Virus record (IMG/VR): IMGVR_UViG_3300028591_000010
Coordinates: 42,374 to 106,373 of that record
Length of the DNA: 64,000 bases
Strand: one strand, 5' to 3'
DNA from: a virus
Lineage: Duplodnaviria > Caudoviricetes
In this document: positions 1,269 through 49,405 of the stretch, in pieces
Layout: every line of letters begins with the position of its first letter
Numbering within the stretch: position 1 is the first letter of the stretch
Made by a program: the position numbers and the translations under genes
The notes under the pieces: model-generated
Databases searched by the model: none
What the model was told of the DNA's origin: nothing
What the model saw: only the letters and a program-made list of their open reading frames with translations

Positions 1269-2293
1269 AGGTTCAATGACTCTGAGCCATCGCCTTCATA
1301 ATATTCTCTACTATGCTCCCACTTGCCTGTAGACTGATGCCATGCTATTTCATCTAGAACATCGTGTATGATTGCTATTCTAGAATTAACAGTATATTCA
1401 TCAATACAAAACACACGAATCTCATAACTACCTGTAGTATCTATACCGATAATGTAGAATTCAAAGTCCCATGTTAATGGGTCTTCTCCACATTCATTTT
1501 TTAGATACCATAAAACAGCGTTTTTATAATAACACAACTGTCTTAGATAGTCATACATCTCTATACTTTCCTCAAAGTGCCACAGTTTTGCTGTAGTCTT
1601 TAAGTCGTATATAATAGCTTTCTTATTCTTGAAATCAAGAGTAAGACCGTCTAACAGAGATTTACATTGTACGCCTCTGCATTCCCAGTTTATATGAAAT
1701 TCGTGACTGTAAGTAAATCTTGCCCCTTCGTGATACGAAACCTTTACGTCGAACGAATCTTCAAATCCAAGTTCCGTGTCAAATGGCCAGATTATCTTAC
1801 GAGCAAGCTTATGAGATTGAATGTTATGCTTGATTTTTTCAAGCATTTTAACATCCCAAGGACTAATCATAATCCTTCCATCATTTTCTTTCAAGAAGTC
1901 TATATAATCCTTCAACGTAGAGGCTATTTTAAGGCCTTCTGACAGCATTTTGTCTTCTGACTTTCCTGCTGTACTATATGCTTCTTTATAAGCGCTTAGA
2001 ATGGCTCTATTTGGCTCTATTTCTAGTGAAGATGCTAAAGCCTGACAGAACTTCTCCTGCTGTGCAGAATTAGGTCTACTTTTGTCCCAGACTACATAGT
2101 CTTTTTGGAACTCTTCTGGCTGTAACAGATATTCGTGAATCATAGTTCCACGCTCCAACACAGGATTCTTTTCTTCTGGTGGAGGATCTGTTAGCATCTT
2201 ATGTAAAAAGGCTGGTCCCTTCTGTAGAAACCAGCCTATGTTCGAATTTGAGATCCTCGAAAGGTCCTCGTAATATGGAATACTTATATCCAT
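1265..2293 (-). CDS. PD-(D/E)XK exonuclease (RecE/exonuclease VIII, DUF3799-like)
   Basis: ISNS, GTMIHEYLL, CKSLLD...IYDLKTT and YLRQLCYY motifs. Confidence 0.85.
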   Translation of the reverse strand: MDISIPYYEDLSRISNSNIGWFLQKGPAFLHKMLTDPPPEEKNPVLERGTMIHEYLLQPEEFQKDYVVWDKSRPNSAQQEKFCQALASSLEIEPNRAILSAYKEAYSTAGKSEDKMLSEGLKIASTLKDYIDFLKENDGRIMISPWDVKMLEKIKHNIQSHKLARKIIWPFDTELGFEDSFDVKVSYHEGARFTYSHEFHINWECRGVQCKSLLDGLTLDFKNKKAIIYDLKTTAKLWHFEESIEMYDYLRQLCYYKNAVLWYLKNECGEDPLTWDFEFYIIGIDTTGSYEIRVFCIDEYTVNSRIAIIHDVLDEIAWHQSTGKWEHSREYYEGDGSESLNL

Positions 2294-8454: not shown

Positions 8455-10320
8455 CTAAAATAATGATAGCTGTTGTTCAGTGAAGTCCGCTATCACTTTT
8501 TTGGCTTCACTGATATAGTACCGATAGTTAATCTTTCGATCTTCTATCTTGCGATCATCAAACTTATTCAGGATTGTTACTCCTGATTTTGTTAACATAT
8601 TTGTTCGGTCTCTATCGTCTTCAGGATTATCCTTGAAGAGATATGCTCCGTTTGTACTTGCGTAAAATCTATTGATACGTTGTACAGGTTTATCACCATG
8701 TATAACTTTAAACTTCTTGTCTACTGCTTGTGACATCAAGAAATCACGGATTTCTCTATCCTTCTCAATAGTTTCTGTCACTGGAATATGATGAACAAAG
8801 TAATTTATAACTGCCTTAGGTATGACTACAGGTGCTAGTCCCTTACCTAATTTGTTTTTAGTTATAAACATACCTTTTTCTTCTATCTCACCATTCTTCA
8901 AGACCCCAAAGTAGTCGTTGATAGCGTATTGATAGAATGCTTCGTACTCATCGGTTTCAAACATAAGCTGTGTAATCTGTTCAACCTCTGAGATGGCTTC
9001 CTGAATTCCTTCTCTAAGGCTGTTTTTAGCCCTGTAGACGACGCCATCGGTGTTGACCTGTATAATCTCACATCCGAGCTCTAAAAGCCTGTCTACGAGC
9101 ATTAAAAGGATTAGCTGACCGTTTATTCTAATCTTAAAAACATTGAACGGATCATACATCCAGCTTACCTCCTGTTGCATTTTACCTGTAGGAGAATTAA
9201 GCACGATCTTTAGAAACAAGTTCTTAATCTTTTGACCTGTACGTTTTGCTTCTACTCGCTCAGCATATAAGTCAGCGAATATATCACAAAAGATTTTTCC
9301 TAAGTGGCGAGGTCCCCATTGATATTTAATCAAGAAGGACGGATACATCGAAGTCACATCTGCGTGACCTATAAACTCGTCATCTTTAGGTAGGAATATC
9401 TGCGGTGTGTGGATGGAGTGTATACCACCCACGCCTACAGAGTATACCACGTTTGAGAGAACAAACTTCTTCTCATAGCCTTTGCGTTCTTTAGAGTATA
9501 CGACTTGTTTCTTCATATCTTCTAGAACGTCTTGTAACTTTGGATTTTTGTATTTTATATATGGCAATATGACATCCTTCAATGGAATATAATCCATTGG
9601 AGAACGCATCTCCTTTATAACATTTTTAGGAATACCTGTTCTCTTAGAATATTCTTCTAACAGAAAGGTTTCTGCCATCTTCACACTATCCATAGACAAA
9701 CAGTCTATGCCGTGTTCTTGTTCAATGAACAAACGCAATTCAATATCTGGTTTCAAACGGTTTAATAACTCTTCTGTTGAATCTACGTCGTTTATATTAT
9801 ATGCAATCATCTCATCGATGTCATCATCTTTGATAGGAGCATTAAAGTCACCATCATACTCCTGCACATTTCTATAATGCATTGTCACCTGCATAGTCTT
9901 AAGACCAACACGTAGTTTTCTACTGAATTGCATTGTGAGCAAATCCATCGATTCGAAGTAATGTGCATACTTCCATCGCTTAATCCGCTCGTATTTTTCA
10001 TCCTCCGTTTCCACTATATATTTCGATAAGTTGTAAAGAGACTGACATATCTTTAAATAAGACATATTAGACAACTTATAATAGTAATCTATTATATAGT
10101 TAATTACAACATCATCATAGTGATGATTATTATAACCACAGAACATCTTTTCAGAACTATCATAATAGAAAAAATCAACTAGACTGTCTAGCTGATTCTT
10201 TCTATTAGATATTTCGAATTTATGTATTTGTCCACTTTCAGTATCTTTACAGCAACAGTGGAATGCGTTAGGGAAGATCTCTACGTCATATACGTAGACT
10301 CGTCGATTTCGTATCCACAT
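8455..10320 (-). CDS. DNA polymerase family B with 3'-5' exonuclease
   Basis: ExoI YDVE, GYNNHHYD and YNINDV; polymerase motifs DVTSMYPS, KIVLNSPTGK and NTDG. Ends QQLSLF followed by TAG TAA. Confidence 0.93.
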   Translation of the reverse strand: MWIRNRRVYVYDVEIFPNAFHCCCKDTESGQIHKFEISNRKNQLDSLVDFFYYDSSEKMFCGYNNHHYDDVVINYIIDYYYKLSNMSYLKICQSLYNLSKYIVETEDEKYERIKRWKYAHYFESMDLLTMQFSRKLRVGLKTMQVTMHYRNVQEYDGDFNAPIKDDDIDEMIAYNINDVDSTEELLNRLKPDIELRLFIEQEHGIDCLSMDSVKMAETFLLEEYSKRTGIPKNVIKEMRSPMDYIPLKDVILPYIKYKNPKLQDVLEDMKKQVVYSKERKGYEKKFVLSNVVYSVGVGGIHSIHTPQIFLPKDDEFIGHADVTSMYPSFLIKYQWGPRHLGKIFCDIFADLYAERVEAKRTGQKIKNLFLKIVLNSPTGKMQQEVSWMYDPFNVFKIRINGQLILLMLVDRLLELGCEIIQVNTDGVVYRAKNSLREGIQEAISEVEQITQLMFETDEYEAFYQYAINDYFGVLKNGEIEEKGMFITKNKLGKGLAPVVIPKAVINYFVHHIPVTETIEKDREIRDFLMSQAVDKKFKVIHGDKPVQRINRFYASTNGAYLFKDNPEDDRDRTNMLTKSGVTILNKFDDRKIEDRKINYRYYISEAKKVIADFTEQQLSLF

Positions 10321-12587: not shown

Positions 12588-13142
12588 TTATATAGCGAAA
12601 TCCTGCTCAAACATAGTAGCAGTCTTATCGTCAAGAGTAATCTCAGTATTGTTATTGAAATTCTCCATATTAGTGTCAAACTTATTAGCCTTCAACTGCA
12701 AATCCTTAATCAGAGCTGCAATCTTAGCACTTGTGAAAATCTCCTCCTTACCAATATTCTTAAGACCCTTCTGAGCCTTAGTCTTCTGGTCAAGCGTAGG
12801 AATCATCTTAAGCTGTGCAATAGCCTCCTTCATCTCACAAGCCATGAAGATGCTATAATTGTTGGTCTTCTTGAAATCCTCAGCATTGAACGTATCAATA
12901 CCCATATTTAAATAAAACAACATACCTTTAATATACACCAGCTTCTCTGCCATCTGAGTAATCTCGTTATAGAGAGCCTTCAGATCGTGTGTACGGAAGC
13001 CATTCTTAATCTCTTTCTTAGAGAGCAGATTCTCTGCCTTAATATAGCTCCAATACTTCTTCTTCTTACTATTAATATCATCACGCATATTAATAATCTT
13101 ACCTGAGTTCAACTTAATTGATTTCGTCATATATATAAACAT
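12588..13142 (-). CDS. Hypothetical coiled-coil protein (start may be ATG 13130)
   Basis: Intact ORF with helical composition. Confidence 0.7.
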   Translation of the reverse strand: MFIYMTKSIKLNSGKIINMRDDINSKKKKYWSYIKAENLLSKKEIKNGFRTHDLKALYNEITQMAEKLVYIKGMLFYLNMGIDTFNAEDFKKTNNYSIFMACEMKEAIAQLKMIPTLDQKTKAQKGLKNIGKEEIFTSAKIAALIKDLQLKANKFDTNMENFNNNTEITLDDKTATMFEQDFAI

Positions 13143-13241
13143 TTGATTTAGTTAGACTTCGTGTTAATTAAATTGAATTCGAGTATCATCTACCTGTGAC
13201 TTATAGCAAATCGCTTCACTATAAATCTAAACAAATCTCTG

Positions 13242-13606
13242 TGAGGGCAGAATCCCGCAAGATTCTACCCTCAAACTCCCGCAAGAGTTATAGACGAGAT
13301 AAGTTTTATGAAAATAGCATTATCGACAATGACCTAGATATATTCATTGCTCAGTTCATCAAGATGTTATTATACTACCGCAATAATATAACAACTAAAT
13401 CCCGCAAGATTTATTAGTCTCGACTAATATGAGCTCCGACTACACCCATTTCAAGGTCAATAAATGCTCTACCAGTTGCGTCTGGAAAACGATACGTATG
13501 AGTACGTGTACGAGTATTAACGTTAACGACAATGTTTGTGTCATTGGCAGGTGTCTCAGTGACTACAACCCTTGAGCCCGACTTCCTCTGGTCTCCCGCA
13601 AGAGAC
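13242..13606 (-). promoter_or_regulatory. Cluster of five RNA hairpins with invariant UUGCGG loop
   Basis: Hairpins at 13242-13273, 13274-13289, 13366-13395, 13396-13413 and 13591-13606. Stems differ in sequence, the loop is identical, and G-U pairs form only on the minus strand. Confidence 0.8.
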
Positions 13607-14004
13607 GATTGTCCGTCACCATTACACACATGTCTATAACAATCCATCAGACGATTAACTACATCGTTATACTTTTCCGCACGTTGTGCTTCCTTAGCTA
13701 TTTCAACACTCAAACCTTCTTCCAATGCTTTCGCATTTAATCCTGAAGAAAGGTCAACCAGGGCATCCCATACAGCGAGAGCCCAACTTTCAAATGTAAG
13801 TTCGCGCTTACATCCGATCAGCTGATTCCAGAACCAATGAGTTGTTTCACCAAGAATCACGGTTCCTTCTACATCGTCAATACGATACGTCTTGTATGAT
13901 CTACCCTCTTTGCCAGCAGCTTTTACCTTATTGGCAATAGTTTCATTGTTCATCAGAATCTCCATATATTTTACGGAGTCTGGAACGAGGGCTGTTTTCG
14001 GCAT
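13414..14004 (-). CDS. Hypothetical protein
   Basis: Intact 196-aa ORF starting 2 nt after the upstream stop. Confidence 0.75.
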   Translation of the reverse strand: MPKTALVPDSVKYMEILMNNETIANKVKAAGKEGRSYKTYRIDDVEGTVILGETTHWFWNQLIGCKRELTFESWALAVWDALVDLSSGLNAKALEEGLSVEIAKEAQRAEKYNDVVNRLMDCYRHVCNGDGQSSLAGDQRKSGSRVVVTETPANDTNIVVNVNTRTRTHTYRFPDATGRAFIDLEMGVVGAHISRD

Positions 14005-14660: not shown

Positions 14661-14679
14661 TTTTACTTATCCTTTTTGA

Positions 14680-16800
14680 TACCGTGGTTGATCCACCAAC
14701 GATAAGTTAGAATATTTCCTACTTCAGGGTGTAGGTTCACCGCTATAGAGAGATTTACGTCCGGCTCGGCGGCTCTATGTCTGGACGGTGTTCGTCATAC
14801 TTATTTTTACTTCGGTAGCTGTGCTAATGGGAAGCTTCGTTTGCTTACTAGATTGTTACACTTCTATATTCCTTAAAATGAAGCTCAACTCATGTAACGG
14901 GAGCGAAATGGTATCGCATGTATACCCATAGACTAATAATATTCGAAGCTTTAAATGCCGAATGTGTAAATTCAATTTCTAAGTTTTCTTGAACAAGATA
15001 TTTATTGTTTGTAAAATATTCACTAAATACTTTCCCTTACGGTACTAAATCCAGAGTTTATACTTGTCCGTTGGCAAAATTTTGGCTAGGCCAACTAATG
15101 CTCATAGGACCCCACAAAAATTCGCGTAATTTCTTCGTTAGTATATTTCCCGTTGTCTATCGAATCATTACTGCGACGATTGTTGCTTAACCACAGATTT
15201 TCTCTGATGTTGCATGGTTTAAGGCCCACACTACTATTTACCTATATTCCCTTTTAATCATGACGTGCGTGTGTCATTGCACGGGACGTGCTTCATTATC
15301 GAACGATCTAGGCTCCAGAACCAAATAACCTTACGGCTTGTTTTCTTCTATTGGCATATTGCTTGCCTCATTGTTTATAGTGCACGAATACTGGAGGAAT
15401 TCCACCTCATACGTCTAGATTTATCACCCACCTAAAGATTCATTTTTATCGGTTTCCATTACTACTACTTACACACTAGGTATAAGGTTCATGCAGGTCG
15501 CTTTACCCCTCCTAGACAGGGAGGTGATTACTAATTTCACGATAGGCTGCCTTGCATCTGGATTTCTCCTTTGTCACGTATATTGCTTCATGGTCCGAAC
15601 GCACCATCTAGATTTGCTGTCTAGACTTCTGGTCTACCATCTTGCTACTTGCTTCTCAGGAACGGTTGGCACTCGAACTTCCCGACTTCAACTGCTTCTC
15701 ATACAACGAGAGCTAAGGTCTTCTACACCTTTTTCTATTATTACGTCTATCGGGGGACATCAATTTTTGTTAAACATGTTAATTAACTCTACGGCACGTT
15801 TTTCTACTCACATTTAGTTTCATCAGAATCTACTACATCGATATGTTGTTCACGTATAGTATACAGTTTACTACTCTGCCGGGACTATATGATATAGTAA
15901 CATAAGGAATCATCTGATTATATTCATGCTTTTGAGGAAGCGGACTTAAGTCTGTACTGGTGTGTACAGGGTCGGATCAACTCCCTAGATAAGTAAATTT
16001 GGCTGTCACGTTGCCATCGTACCACAGGACATTTCCTTTTACTGTGGGTCCTTCTATAGAATCATACTCGCTTACCAGTACTATCTACCTTTGAAATAGC
16101 GTTTCTACGCGCGCTTCATCCGCGTATTGTAGGCACCTGTCCTACAAGTTAAGTAGTGCATCTACCCGCTGTCCTTTTACTTTTATATACCGCATAAATG
16201 ACGAAAGCCTGGCGGTCAACATTTTCCTCAGTACCCCATCCCCGGTGACCCATTGAAACCTTAGCTTCAAAGGTGGTCATTCTGTCTCGACACAGAAAGG
16301 ATTTCTTCAAGGACCATATTTACGATATGGCGCAGACAGTCAAACCTTCTGCTAGGCACATATGTTATTTCTTCATCCCTTTATACACGCTGTGGAGGCG
16401 TGAAACACTAGATTACAGCTAATTGATACATCATTACAAGTCATGGTCAAATGTAATGTTGCGACTCCTGTCTCGTTATACTACCCTTATGTATCCTCAG
16501 ATAGCATGTCGAATACGGCATCATTCTGCGCTTCTTGCGACTTACTCGTTTTTATGGTAATCCCTCACCAAACGGTTCTCAGGGGCCAAAGGACTTGATA
16601 CAAACGCTCTGTCCTCTTACTATGAACTTTTCTGTTATGGAGTATGCATAACATCATAGCATTTCATCCTACCTTTTGGATATCTCACCTTTTGAGAAGG
16701 CTAACATATTCTCGGATCAAGTTATACTCTTCGCACCTGGGCTAATGAGACCCATCTGAAATGTGCTAAGCAGGTGCCACTCTGGCTGGAGCCACAGTAA
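14680..16800 (-). ncRNA. ~2.1-kb non-coding, hairpin-rich block; candidate large structured RNA(s)
   Basis: No minus-strand ORF of 60 aa or more in the track; TAA/TGA in all minus frames where sampled; many short inverted repeats. Strand is inferred from the flanking genes. Confidence 0.4.
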
Positions 16801-16802
16801 TC

Positions 16803-20433: not shown

Positions 20434-20931
20434 TTAATACTTACCTTCTATACAACATATCAAGAATTCTGCTAAGTTATCAACATACTGATACTTTGCT
20501 TCTTTCTCCTCCTGCGTACAATTGGGAGAAGGTAATAGCCAAGAAAGATAATCTCGAATGATTTCAATCTGTATATCAAAATCATCTTTACCTTTCTGTT
20601 TAGAGATACTGTATGCATGTTCAATGCACTGAAATTCTTTCATGAACCATTTAACCCATTTAGAGATACGTTCCCAATATTCTTTTTCTTCATTGGTTAA
20701 ATCGTCCCAATTAATAGTTTTATCAAACTCAAATTGATATTTACCATGTTCAGCAATGCCCAATGCTATACGAGTAGCATTATTACGCTGATCTTTATCA
20801 CGATATATACCAATAAAATTTGAATAAACATGATCTATCCACTTTTCTTTAGCTTTACGCCATTTAAGTGCATAGTTTACCATCTTGGGACAACGGTCCC
20901 GTAACATTTCTTTGTATCCTAATTTCTTCAT
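20434..20931 (-). CDS. Hypothetical protein
   Basis: Intact 165-aa ORF. Confidence 0.7.
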   Translation of the reverse strand: MKKLGYKEMLRDRCPKMVNYALKWRKAKEKWIDHVYSNFIGIYRDKDQRNNATRIALGIAEHGKYQFEFDKTINWDDLTNEEKEYWERISKWVKWFMKEFQCIEHAYSISKQKGKDDFDIQIEIIRDYLSWLLPSPNCTQEEKEAKYQYVDNLAEFLICCIEGKY

Positions 20932-20935
20932 ATTG

Positions 20936-21009
20936 TGATTCCTAATGGATTCGAACCATTGACCGACAGATTAGAAATCTGTTGCTCTATCCAGCTGAGC
21001 TAAGGAACC
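20936..21009 (-). tRNA. tRNA-Arg(TCT)
   Basis: GGTTCCT/AGGAATC acceptor, D-loop AGCTGGATA, ACAGA-TTTCTAA-TCTGT anticodon arm, TTCGAAT T-loop. Confidence 0.9.
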
Positions 21010-21082
21010 GTTACGTCAGCGGCTACTATTATTCACCGCTGACTACTATTACAAATCGTTCATTAGACATTGCCTCACGGCA

Positions 21083-21130
21083 GGAGTGAGGTAGGGATTC
21101 GAACCCCATACTCCAACATAGTCCTCACTC
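21083..21130 (-). ncRNA. Mini-tRNA element directly 3' of the tmRNA coding piece
   Basis: GAGTGAGG/CCTCACTC stem with T-arm TGGGG-TTCGAAT-CCCTA; short linker with no D or anticodon arm. Confidence 0.7.
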
Positions 21131-21350
21131 TGTCTGGGCACTTAGGTAGCCCGTAACACCGACTTTACGCTGCCTCCTTGAGGCCCGTATAGTCTGCAAT
21201 GTTAATATTGCCAGTTAATTTTATATCAGAGCGCTTCACGACTTACCGTCTACCGCTGTCAAATCCAAATAGGCCCAGATACTCATGTTAGACTGGTGGA
21301 CCTAGAGGGATTCGAACCCTCGTCCAAACGGCTTATTCTCAGTCACGCTA
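21131..21350 (-). ncRNA. ssrA: Circularly permuted (two-piece) tmRNA; tag peptide (A)GNINIADYTGLKEAA
   Basis: Acceptor piece ...GGACGAGGGTTCGAATCCCTCTAGGTCCACCA ends at 21294. After a 17-nt intervening segment the coding piece starts GGGCCTATTTGGATTTGAC at 21276. The acceptor stem has G3-U70; the tag ORF 21212-21165 follows TTAACT. Outer boundaries are approximate. Confidence 0.88.
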
Positions 21351-21553
21351 AGATTCTTTTGATGTGATGTTGTCAAATCATGCTACATCTCTTGTGAACT
21401 CTATGATGATCAGTCACAGAATTCGATTTAAGGCCATTTTCAGCCGTTCTAAGGCGTTTTCTAACCTCTAATGGGTAGCTAATCCATAAGCGGTTATTAA
21501 ACGCTTCAAAACGGCTTTTTGGGACCCCATAAAAAGCACATTGCCCTACTACT

Positions 21554-49350: not shown

Positions 49351-49405
49351 TTAATTGTGCACTCGGGGGCTACGGCCCCTGACAATGCACATAAAAAGTA
49401 ATAAT

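What the first reader, a model, noticed from the sequence alone, without database searches (positions are those of the whole stretch)
13242..13606. Five hairpins with an invariant UUGCGG loop and different stems, arranged as two short+long tandem pairs
Seen (minus sense): TGAGGGTAGAATC-TTGCGG-GATTCTGCCCTCA (13 bp); AACTC-TTGCGG-GAGTT; GTTGTTATATTA-TTGCGG-TAGTATAATAAC (12 bp); TAAATC-TTGCGG-GATTTA; and GTCTC-TTGCGG-GAGAC inside the 3' part of ORF 13414..14004. Stem sequences differ but keep pairing, all apparent mismatches are G-U on the minus strand, and the short+long abutting pair is repeated ~76 nt apart. Inference: selected RNA structure presenting a loop to a protein, either boxB/nut-like antitermination sites ahead of the replication operon or an autoregulatory/multivalent binding platform.
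Basis: partly seen in the sequence, partly recalled or inferred. Interest (0 to 1): 0.85.

Follow-up and report, generated by a model that had tools for sequence, protein, structure and literature searches.

The report
Tetraloop hairpin array in crAss-like phage
A rumen crAss-like phage and its whole subfamily keep five RNA hairpins with ever-changing stems but the same kind of four-base cap at fixed places between two early genes; the fold is clearly selected, but what reads it has not been found.

Summary
All five minus-strand TTGCGG copies at 13255-13601 sit in hairpins, and the other 11 copies in the 106-kb genome have no stem. The window is a complete crAss-like phage (Suoliviridae, Oafivirinae-like, rumen). 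In 57 non-redundant relatives the same five positions carry hairpins: H0 inside the 196-aa ORF, then H1+H2 and H3+H4. Stems differ but covary: 96% of cells paired, 27 of 32 pairs with changes on both sides, 0 of 500 shuffles as good. The "invariant UUGCGG" is specific to this genome. Across relatives the cap is a YGMG tetraloop (UGCG, CGAG, UGAG; UNCG/YNMG class), closed by C-G or U.G. Only the sense strand folds (G.U 81 against A.C 9). H3+H4 are enclosed by a further covarying stem, and a sixth hairpin (H5) follows. H1 abuts the ORF's stop codon. Sister subfamilies lack the hairpins; some carry a tRNA in the same slot. Best reading (about 0.45): a cis-acting RNA module on the early transcript that sets mRNA ends and stability. 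A specific loop reader is likely but unidentified. boxB/nut membership is not supported. The array is not in Rfam and not in the papers searched. The scan noted this same stretch three times, and other invariant-loop arrays (different loops) on other genomes.

The parts
13591..13606 (-). H0: 6-bp hairpin with a UGCG tetraloop (U.G closing pair), inside ORF 13414-14004. It lies in the codons of a disordered linker (protein ...S-L-A-G-D...).
   Evidence: It is conserved at the same ORF position (about nt 404) with at least 6 different stems in relatives and in other genera. The loop codon reads Ala (GCG) or Glu (GAG) according to loop type. The linker has pLDDT below 50.
13412..13429 (-). Hx: 7-bp hairpin with a CGAG loop covering the ORF's two stop codons. 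It overlaps H1 by 2 nt.
   Evidence: It is seen only in the window and its nearest relative (L008/L018, with one A.C), so it is clade-specific and of doubtful significance.
13396..13413 (-). H1: short hairpin (6-7 bp) with a UGCG loop. Its 5' arm includes the second stop codon of the ORF.
   Evidence: In 26 of 28 relatives H1 starts -3 to +4 nt from the end of the stop codon. Covariation is shown by helix 1.
13366..13395 (-). H2: long hairpin (13 bp including 3 G.U) with a UGCG loop, abutting H1.
   Evidence: many compensatory pairs. In relatives its loop is most often CGAG (20 of 28).
13290..13365 (-). A-rich, poorly conserved 76-nt spacer. Its last bases (13296-13300, AUCUC) form the 5' strand of the outer stem P.
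   Evidence: Alignments. In 8 of 28 relatives the spacer holds a small GNRA-capped hairpin.
13274..13289 (-). H3: short hairpin (5-6 bp) with a UGCG loop.
   Evidence: helix 3 (4 of 5 pairs with changes on both sides).
13242..13273 (-). H4: long hairpin (14 bp including 2 G.U) with a UGCG loop, abutting H3.
   Evidence: helix 4 (5 of 6 pairs with changes on both sides).
13235..13300 (-). P: 5-bp outer stem (AUCUC at 13296-13300 with GAGAU at 13235-13239) that encloses H3 and H4 as a three-way junction.
   Evidence: RNAalifold; helix 2 is 94% paired, with U-A to C-G in 8 sequences and C-G to U-A in 5.
13198..13227 (-). H5: 9-12-bp hairpin without a YGMG loop, directly 5' of the conserved leader.
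   Evidence: helix 5 (10 of 11 pairs with changes on both sides, 98.7% paired).
13143..13197 (-). Unstructured leader of the 184-aa ORF. It is almost invariant, is conserved across the whole family Suoliviridae, and is unique in this genome.
   Evidence: conservation; single copy. RNA contigs of two studies end at 13183 while a DNA run continues, which is a weak hint of an RNA 5' end.
13414..14004 (-). 196-aa ORF of unknown function that carries H0 and ends at H1.
   Evidence: AF2 model and fold searches.
12588..13142 (-). 184-aa ORF (real start probably the ATG at 13130): a highly conserved helical-bundle protein of unknown function.
   Evidence: AF2 model at pLDDT 91.7; no significant fold match.

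Best explanation
The hairpins are RNA structures on the sense (minus-strand) early transcript. Together with an outer stem around H3+H4 and a sixth hairpin H5, they form a conserved structured intercistronic module of about 300 nt, plus one outpost (H0) inside the upstream ORF. I think the module most likely punctuates the transcript. The very stable YNMG-capped hairpins that start at the stop codon of the 196-aa ORF would define and protect the 3' end of the upstream message, either by blocking 3' exonucleases or by stopping or pausing the polymerase. H5 and the leader would define the start of the separately controlled message for the highly conserved 184-aa protein. The invariant G at loop position 2 (the base a UNCG-type loop turns outwards) and the invariant 3' closing G suggest that a phage or host protein reads the caps. 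That protein is not identified. Shown here: the fold, its strand, its selection and its positional conservation. Inferred: the RNA (rather than single-stranded DNA) nature, the role in end formation and stability, and the existence of a reader.
For: The structure is real and selected. In 35 aligned relatives 96.4% of cells are paired, 27 of 32 pairs change on both sides, 0 of 500 shuffles match this, and slid controls pair only 32-54%. Only the sense strand folds: G.U 81 against A.C 9 in stems; 201 YGMG hairpins on the sense strand against 35 on the antisense; MFE -77.7 kcal/mol (z -4.07) against -53.1 (z -1.98). The loops belong to an RNA-specific stable tetraloop class: UGCG 89, CGAG 82, UGAG 30, CGCG 3; the YNMG class is described in PMC2346598 and PMC5633025. 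H1 starts within -3 to +4 nt of the stop codon in 26 of 28 genomes, the usual place for a 3'-end hairpin. In sister subfamilies the same slot, directly 5' of the same conserved leader, holds a real tRNA in 3 of 8 genomes. In 3 more I saw T-arm-like hairpins by eye. This fits the slot being a processing point. In phage phi14:2 the whole replication module is one early class transcribed by the virion RNA polymerase, and its long intergenic RNAs are abundant and stable (10.1101/2020.03.07.982082). Weak RNA evidence comes from metatranscriptome contigs only. One RNA contig (13393-14884) stops 3 nt after H1. RNA contigs of two studies end at 13183, 14 nt after H5. RNA depth is uneven (63, 0, 10, 52) where a DNA run is flat at about 105.
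Against: None of the hairpins is followed by a U tract, and the terminator scan calls none of them. H0 lies inside the coding region, where a plain terminator or 3' stabiliser makes little sense. If the hairpins were generic stabilisers they should occur at other intercistronic gaps, but YGMG hairpins occur only at this locus in the genome. Stability alone does not explain why position 2 is always G and never U or A as in the most stable UNCG loops, nor why about half of the closing pairs are the weaker U.G. The RNA data are assembled contigs, not reads. They show neither strand nor true ends, and the uncovered stretch may simply reflect poor cDNA synthesis through stable hairpins (as noted for Bacteroides terminators in PMC7366714). 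A deeper RNA library of the same sample bridges the region. tRNA genes may sit in the slot of other subfamilies only because intergenic DNA tolerates them.
Confidence: 0.45

Rival explanations
1. The five caps form a multivalent operator platform. They would be binding sites for one loop-specific RNA-binding protein, phage-encoded (for example the 196-aa protein acting on its own message, or one of the very basic 232- and 283-aa proteins downstream) or host-encoded. Binding would control translation, decay or read-through, much as the five IRE hairpins do in the transferrin-receptor 3' UTR. This overlaps with the best explanation but makes regulation by a reader, not end formation, the main point.
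For: G2, G4 and the 3' closing G are invariant in about 200 hairpins, while stems and positions 1 and 3 vary. There are five sites at fixed spacing, including one inside the ORF. The array is unique to this locus. The short+long pair architecture is kept in all relatives. Loop type is more uniform within genomes than position-wise shuffling predicts (8 of 28 uniform against 0.58 expected, 0 of 5000 shuffles). A viral protein reading a YNMG loop has a precedent in enterovirus 3C and oriL stem-loop D (PMC5633025).
Against: No RNA-binding domain or fold was found in any flanking protein. Mixed loop types within one genome are common, so any reader must accept all three. On a tree the within-genome uniformity reduces to about three lineages, and only 2-6 independent pairs exist, so co-evolution cannot be shown. 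The N-terminal domain of the 196-aa protein has distant positional homologues in Loutivirinae, which have no such hairpins.
Confidence: 0.27
2. One reading: boxB/nut-like sites that load a processive antitermination factor onto the polymerase before it enters the replication genes.
For: The array lies upstream of the replication genes, with the DNA polymerase gene at 8455-10320. It consists of strand-specific nascent-RNA hairpins with a conserved cap. Paired hairpins recall the two-stem put RNAs of HK022 (my own knowledge). Bacteroides RNA polymerase does use nascent pause hairpins to load NusG paralogues (PMC11685472).
Against: The loops are 4-nt YNMG, not GNRA-like pentaloops. No boxA-like element and no N-like arginine-rich protein was recognised. 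There are no recognisable terminators downstream to be overridden. By analogy with phi14:2, this module may be transcribed by the virion two-barrel polymerase, for which no antitermination system is known. One site is inside an ORF.
Confidence: 0.08
3. The region is a compactly folded non-coding RNA in its own right, such as a scaffold, a decoy or a ribozyme-like fold. The YGMG caps would merely close the helices, as UNCG and GNRA loops do in ribosomal RNA.
For: There are seven helices, including a three-way junction, all covarying. A GNRA-capped hairpin occurs in the spacer of 8 of 28 relatives. Abundant, stable intergenic RNAs exist in the early region of phi14:2.
Against: No promoter or terminator of its own was recognised. 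The long spacer is poorly conserved in sequence and length (72-106 nt loop to loop), which argues against a tight tertiary fold. H0 lies 190 nt upstream inside an ORF. There is no Rfam match even at E up to 10.
Confidence: 0.1
4. The hairpins work as single-stranded DNA. They could be a replication origin or priming signal, or hairpin promoters of the kind coliphage N4's virion polymerase uses, here for the crAss-type virion polymerase, which prefers single-stranded templates.
For: The element is unique in the genome and lies in the replication module next to an A-rich spacer. phi14:2 gp66 transcribes single-stranded but not double-stranded DNA in vitro, and its promoters are unknown. G.T wobble asymmetry fits a single DNA strand as well as it fits RNA.
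Against: The strand that folds is the coding (non-template) strand of the surrounding genes. N4-type promoter hairpins form on the template strand, so here they could only drive antisense transcription. YNMG stability is an RNA property. Promoters would be expected in front of several early units, not five at one site with one inside an ORF. There is no change of GC skew at this place.
Confidence: 0.07

Closest known systems
C(UUCG)G-type extra-stable hairpins in the intercistronic regions of phage T4 (Tuerk et al. 1988; cited from my own knowledge, paper not read here)
   Same: Both are phage mRNA hairpins capped by a UNCG/YNMG-class tetraloop within a conserved hexamer (Y-YNMG-G). Both lie between cistrons, have no U tract, and are thought to stabilise RNA or nucleate folding. 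Both are notorious reverse-transcriptase stops.
   Different: Here position 2 is always G (UGCG, CGAG, UGAG) and the closing pair is often U.G. The hairpins are confined to one locus as a fixed five-member array with a short+long pair architecture and one member inside an ORF. In T4 they are scattered over many gaps.
Iron-responsive elements: five IRE hairpins in the transferrin-receptor 3' UTR (my own knowledge)
   Same: Both have five hairpins with different stems and one conserved loop, clustered behind a coding region, forming a multivalent platform that can set mRNA stability.
   Different: IREs are eukaryotic, have a CAGUGN hexaloop with a bulged C, and have a known reader (IRP).
Lambda-type nut sites (boxA + boxB) and HK022 put RNAs
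   Same: Both are nascent-RNA hairpins in a phage early transcript, upstream of delayed genes, with a cap that matters more than the stem. put RNA consists of two adjacent stem-loops.
   Different: boxB is a GNRA-like pentaloop read by an arginine-rich N peptide and is accompanied by boxA. None of these features was found here, and the polymerase involved may not be the host enzyme.
Enterovirus oriL stem-loop D, a YNMG tetraloop bound by viral protein 3C/3CD (PMC5633025)
   Same: Both are viral RNA hairpins whose YNMG tetraloop (UGCG occurs among the natural variants) is the recognition feature for a protein. In both, loop variants are tolerated within the YNMG class.
   Different: oriL is a single hairpin within a cloverleaf of an RNA virus genome, used for replication. 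The present element is an array in a DNA phage transcript.
tRNA punctuation of polycistronic transcripts (tRNA or tRNA-like elements cut by RNase P/Z)
   Same: In both, a stable structured RNA fills the gap between two cistrons. In sister subfamilies the homologous slot holds a real tRNA directly 5' of the same leader.
   Different: The Oafivirinae module has no cloverleaf and is not recognised by ARAGORN or by the Rfam tRNA model.

Membership tests
UNCG/YNMG stable RNA tetraloop hairpins | Four-base loop with Y at position 1, any base at 2, A or C at 3 and G at 4 | tested here: met
   201 of 377 tetraloop hairpins in 57 relatives are UGCG, CGAG or UGAG, and CGCG occurs 3 times. All five in the window are UGCG.
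UNCG/YNMG stable RNA tetraloop hairpins | C-G closing pair, which gives the exceptional stability | tested here: inconclusive
   The closing pair is C-G or U.G in roughly equal numbers, rarely U-A, A-U or G-C. In the window it is U.G in all five.
UNCG/YNMG stable RNA tetraloop hairpins | UNCG-type three-dimensional fold (syn G4, position 2 turned outwards) | not testable with these tools
   This needs NMR or chemical probing.
Lambda-type nut site (boxA/boxB with N protein) | boxB hairpin with a GNRA-like pentaloop | tested here: not met
   The loops are 4-nt YGMG.
Lambda-type nut site (boxA/boxB with N protein) | An N-like arginine-rich antiterminator encoded nearby | tested here: inconclusive
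   No Pfam or PHROG family matches any neighbour. Basic 232- and 283-aa proteins lie downstream but were not characterised.
Lambda-type nut site (boxA/boxB with N protein) | A boxA element 5' of the hairpin, and terminators downstream that are read through | not tested
   No systematic boxA search was made. The terminator scan found nothing relevant on the minus strand.
Canonical intrinsic terminator | G+C-rich hairpin immediately followed by a U tract | tested here: not met
   None of H0-H4 is followed by a T run, and the scan calls none of them. Only the outer stem P is followed by a U-rich stretch (UUUGUUUAG).
N4-type hairpin promoters of a virion RNA polymerase | Small hairpin on the template strand, with a 3-nt loop, in front of each early transcription unit | tested here: not met
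   The fold is on the coding strand, the loops are 4 nt, and the hairpins occur at a single locus only.
CsrB/RsmZ-type protein-sponge sRNA | An independent sRNA gene with its own promoter and terminator and many GGA-containing loops; a CsrA-family partner | tested here: not met
   The loops lack GGA, no promoter or terminator was found, and one hairpin lies within an ORF.
Any Rfam family | Covariance-model match | tested here: not met
   Nothing matched at gathering score in the window. Only noise (E 0.98 or more, far below gathering score) appeared in 13100-13650.

The most novel reading that the evidence does not exclude
The YGMG caps are the address label of a so far unknown loop-specific RNA-binding regulator of Oafivirinae crAss-like phages. 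That regulator could be phage-encoded, possibly one of the uncharacterised neighbouring proteins, or it could be the virion two-barrel RNA polymerase itself. Under this reading the five-site array is a new kind of phage RNA operator that times the switch from the first early genes to the replication genes.
Probability: 0.25. Interest if true: 0.8.

Novelty: new variant of a known kind. Interest (0 to 1): 0.6.

Why it matters
crAss-like phages are among the most abundant viruses of gut and rumen, yet almost nothing is known about how they control their early genes. Their virion RNA polymerase has no known promoter, terminator or regulatory signal. This array is a sharply defined, strongly covarying cis element at a fixed place in the early region of a whole subfamily. 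It also offers a simple discriminating mutation: changing loop G2 to U keeps the fold but changes the exposed base. That makes the question of what reads phage early RNA in Bacteroidota directly testable, and it gives a bait for finding an RNA-binding factor in a phylum that lacks Hfq, ProQ and CsrA. If it turns out to be only a stabiliser, it is still a clean natural example of YNMG tetraloops used as mRNA punctuation, and a useful annotation feature for these genomes.

Tried and rejected
Searches that found nothing:
- Megablast of the locus against 50,697 phage records gave no match.
- Rfam gave no match at gathering score or at E up to 10.
- The sigma-70 promoter and terminator scan found nothing above shuffles and none of the hairpins.
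- PHROGs and Pfam found no family for the five neighbouring ORFs.
- The ESM Atlas gave nothing usable for the 196-aa protein and only unnamed viral clusters for the 184-aa protein.
- A TROVE/Ro60 gene, which is an early gene in crAss001, is absent from this genome.
- Literature searches for crAss-like phage hairpins, terminators or tetraloops returned nothing relevant.

Fold searches:
- For the 196-aa protein (pLDDT 63.5), Foldseek gave E of 0.3 or worse and VIA-align Z of 5.9 or less.
- For the 184-aa protein (pLDDT 91.7), Foldseek gave E of 0.15 or worse and VIA-align Z of 7.9 or less, with generic helical bundles only.
- All of these are at noise level.
- The Roquin ROQ domain, a hairpin-shape reader, appears at Z 5.2 and 4.8 over the N-terminal domain. 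It is not distinguishable from chance and I make no claim from it.

Other checks:
- The conserved leader is not a repeated promoter motif; it occurs once in the window.
- A genome-wide scan found no other loop family enriched on hairpins.
- For co-evolution of loop types, position-wise shuffles are exceeded. The tree test has only 2-6 independent pairs and cannot reach significance.
- RNA libraries were available only as contigs. The uncovered stretch 13184-13392 in run X3 and the depth differences are not evidence of absence, and the deeper library X2 of the same sample bridges the region.
- Kissing-loop, anti-Shine-Dalgarno pairing and alternative pairing of GAGAU with the second AUCUC in the leader were considered by eye. 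I dropped them because the loop variants or covariation do not fit.
- T-arm-like hairpins in cr53_1, cr60_1 and cr118_1 were seen by eye only; neither ARAGORN nor Rfam calls them.

Full report
**What is there**

Read on the minus strand, window 13242-13606 holds five hairpins whose stems differ and whose tips all read UUGCGG. They are H0 13591-13606, H1 13396-13413, H2 13366-13395, H3 13274-13289 and H4 13242-13273.

The hexamer itself is not enriched in the window (13 found, 12.3 expected). In the complete 106,373-bp genome, however, the five clustered minus-strand copies have flanking stems of 5, 6, 12, 5 and 13 bp. The other 11 copies have none. No other loop family is enriched on hairpins in this genome. 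Hairpins capped by UGCG, CGAG or UGAG occur 6 times in these 370 nt, against about 8 times in the remaining 2 x 106 kb. Every non-Watson-Crick pair in them is G.U on the minus strand.

**Where it lies**

The window is part of a complete phage genome with direct terminal repeats. Its DNA polymerase is 76% identical to those of pig phages cr272_1 and cr273_1, and 52-69% identical to other Oafivirinae (Suoliviridae, Crassvirales). Sequencing runs that hold it come from sheep and cattle gut.

The hairpins lie in the minus-strand gene block that ends in the replication genes. The order is:
- an ORF-free 2.1 kb;
- a 217-aa ORF;
- a 196-aa ORF, which contains H0;
- a 271-nt gap holding H1-H4;
- a 184-aa ORF;
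- two very basic ORFs;
- the DNA polymerase gene.

None of the five small ORFs matches any Pfam or PHROG family.

**Relatives**

I collected the homologous locus from annotated phage records (L001-L004), viral contigs and metagenome contigs. This gave 57 non-redundant sequences.

The same five positions carry hairpins almost everywhere:
- H0 at about nt 404 of the ORF;
- H1 at about 591 and H2 at about 615;
- H3 at about 716 and H4 at about 741.

Stems are different in nearly every lineage. The loop is not invariant. It is UGCG (89), CGAG (82) or UGAG (30), rarely CGCG or CGUG. The base pair next to it is C-G or U.G. So the conserved unit is a tetraloop of the YNMG/UNCG class with G fixed at positions 2 and 4 and a fixed 3' closing G. 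The window's "UUGCGG" is UGCG plus a U.G closing pair.

The array occurs in all Oafivirinae genera examined. It is absent from eight genomes of other Suoliviridae subfamilies and from an unclassified relative.

**Selection and strand**

On a 35-sequence alignment, RNAalifold recovers four elements beyond the simple pairs:
- H1, H3 and H4;
- a 5-bp outer stem P (AUCUC with GAGAU) that encloses H3 and H4;
- a sixth hairpin, H5.

The 12-sequence alignment also recovers H2.

For these 32 pairs, 96.4% of cells are paired, against 79% in shuffles and 32-54% when partners are slid. Of the 32 pairs, 27 show changes on both sides (201 cells), and no shuffle out of 500 reaches any of the five measures. 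H0 keeps pairing with at least six different stems although it is coding. In the protein it shows up as x-[Ala/Glu]-Gly-x in a linker that AlphaFold leaves disordered. Ala (GCG) or Glu (GAG) simply reports the loop type.

The fold belongs to the sense strand:
- G.U 81 against A.C 9 in stems;
- 201 against 35 qualifying hairpins on the sense and antisense strands;
- MFE -77.7 kcal/mol (z -4.07) against -53.1 (z -1.98).

The YNMG loops are an RNA-specific stability motif (PMC2346598, PMC5633025). The strand is that of the surrounding genes. I therefore take the structure to be RNA. This is an inference, because a single DNA strand would show the same asymmetry.

**Anatomy that bears on function**

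- H1 starts -3 to +4 nt from the end of the ORF's stop codon in 26 of 28 genomes.
- The short+long pairing (5-7 bp followed by 12-16 bp) is kept at both pairs. The spacer between the pairs is A-rich and poorly conserved.
- After H5 comes a 55-nt leader that is almost invariant, unstructured, unique in the genome and recognisable across the whole family. It precedes the 184-aa protein, which is far more conserved (80-89% identity) than the 196-aa protein (about 55%).
- In other subfamilies the slot directly 5' of that leader holds a bona fide tRNA in 3 of 8 genomes (Thr, Arg, Leu). In three more I saw T-arm-like hairpins by eye only.

So the gap in front of this gene is always filled by a stable structured RNA. 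This suggests a processing or punctuation point rather than a sequence-specific switch common to all.

**Expression**

Only assembled contigs of metatranscriptomes were available. They hold the phage at uneven depth (63, 0, 10 and 52 in X3), where a DNA run is flat at about 105.

One RNA contig stops at 13393, 3 nt after H1. RNA contigs from two studies end at 13183, 14 nt after H5, while the DNA run continues. By the tool's own standard these are weak hints. The uncovered stretch may be due to poor cDNA synthesis through very stable hairpins (PMC7366714), and a deeper library of the same sample bridges the region.

In the model crAss-like phage phi14:2 the whole replication module is early. 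It is transcribed by the virion two-barrel polymerase, for which no signals are known, and it includes abundant, stable intergenic RNAs.

**The search for a reader**

The 196-aa protein (pLDDT 63.5) and the 184-aa protein (pLDDT 91.7, helical bundle) have no significant structural match. A Roquin ROQ hit at Z 5.2 is at noise level.

Loop types are more uniform within genomes than independence predicts (8 of 28 uniform against 0.58 expected). On a tree this reduces to one 13-genome clade with A at position 3 plus two single lineages. Only 2-6 independent contrasts exist. Many genomes mix loop types. The N-terminal domain of the 196-aa protein has distant positional homologues in Loutivirinae, which lack the hairpins (hhalign probability 62-80%). 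No reader can be named.

**Verdict**

The element is a real, strongly selected, sense-strand structured module specific to Oafivirinae crAss-like phages.

I favour a cis-acting role in forming and protecting mRNA ends between the 196-aa and 184-aa genes (confidence 0.45). Three features are not explained by stability alone and point to recognition of the caps by a factor: the invariant outward-facing G, the in-ORF member, and the restriction to one locus. The operator-platform rival (0.27) is therefore close behind, and the two readings are not exclusive.

Membership in the boxB/nut family fails on the loop type. N4-type hairpin promoters fail on strand, loop size and distribution. Canonical terminators fail on the U tract. 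The array is not in Rfam 15, and I found no paper describing it.

Earlier notes of this scan record the same stretch three times. They also record arrays with other invariant loops in other Bacteroidota phages and bacteria. I used those notes as leads only.

Noticed in passing
window 13143-13197 (minus strand); L098-L105 just 5' of the ORF184 homologue: A 55-nt unstructured leader in front of the 184-aa ORF is almost invariant among close relatives. It is recognisable across all Suoliviridae subfamilies, although the proteins are only 30-38% identical, and it occurs once per genome. RNA contigs of two studies end at 13183 inside it.
   Followed up: partly
L098:1158-1231, L099:1166-1240, L104:1076-1160: In other Suoliviridae subfamilies the slot that holds the hairpin array here is occupied by a real tRNA gene (Thr, Arg, Leu) directly 5' of the conserved leader. 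cr53_1, cr60_1 and cr118_1 show T-arm-like hairpins there by eye, but these are not called by ARAGORN or Rfam.
   Followed up: partly
window 13130-13142: The listed 184-aa ORF starts at the ATG at 13142 (MFIYM...). All relatives start at the equivalent of the ATG at 13130 (MTKSIK...), so the real protein is probably 180 aa.
   Followed up: partly
window 14661-16802: About 2.1 kb directly upstream of the 217-aa ORF has no ORF of 60 aa or more on the transcribed strand. The same gap of about 2 kb without annotated genes exists in cr130_1, cr273_1, cr7_1 and Bohxovirus. Other readers of this scan flagged it as a candidate giant non-coding RNA. Alternative genetic codes were not tried.
   Followed up: no
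window 13412-13429 (minus strand): An extra 7-bp hairpin with a CGAG loop covers the two stop codons of the 196-aa ORF and overlaps H1 by 2 nt. It is present only in the window and its closest relative.
   Followed up: partly
window 49357-49392 (+) and genome C1 about 1574-1595 (+): There are two G+C-rich hairpins capped by UACG and UUCG in the plus-strand (late) gene block. The one at 49371 sits in a longer inverted repeat and has no U tract after it. They look like a different, terminator-like hairpin class.
   Followed up: no
window 20909-21387 (minus strand): Rfam reports a permuted tmRNA (58 bits, gathering score 47) at 21165-21356. ARAGORN calls a permuted tmRNA over 20909-21387 that overlaps a tRNA-Arg gene at 20935-21009.
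   Followed up: no
L082:3026-3613: The ORF184 homologue of one metagenome relative contains an in-frame stop codon. It may be a pseudogene, a sequencing error or stop-codon recoding, which is known in crAss-like phages.
   Followed up: no
spacer between H2 and H3 in relatives (e.g. L023, L041, L060, L071): In 8 of 28 relatives the spacer carries a small 4-7-bp hairpin capped by a GNRA tetraloop (GAGA, GAAA or GCGA). The window has a 6-nt loop at that place.
   Followed up: partly
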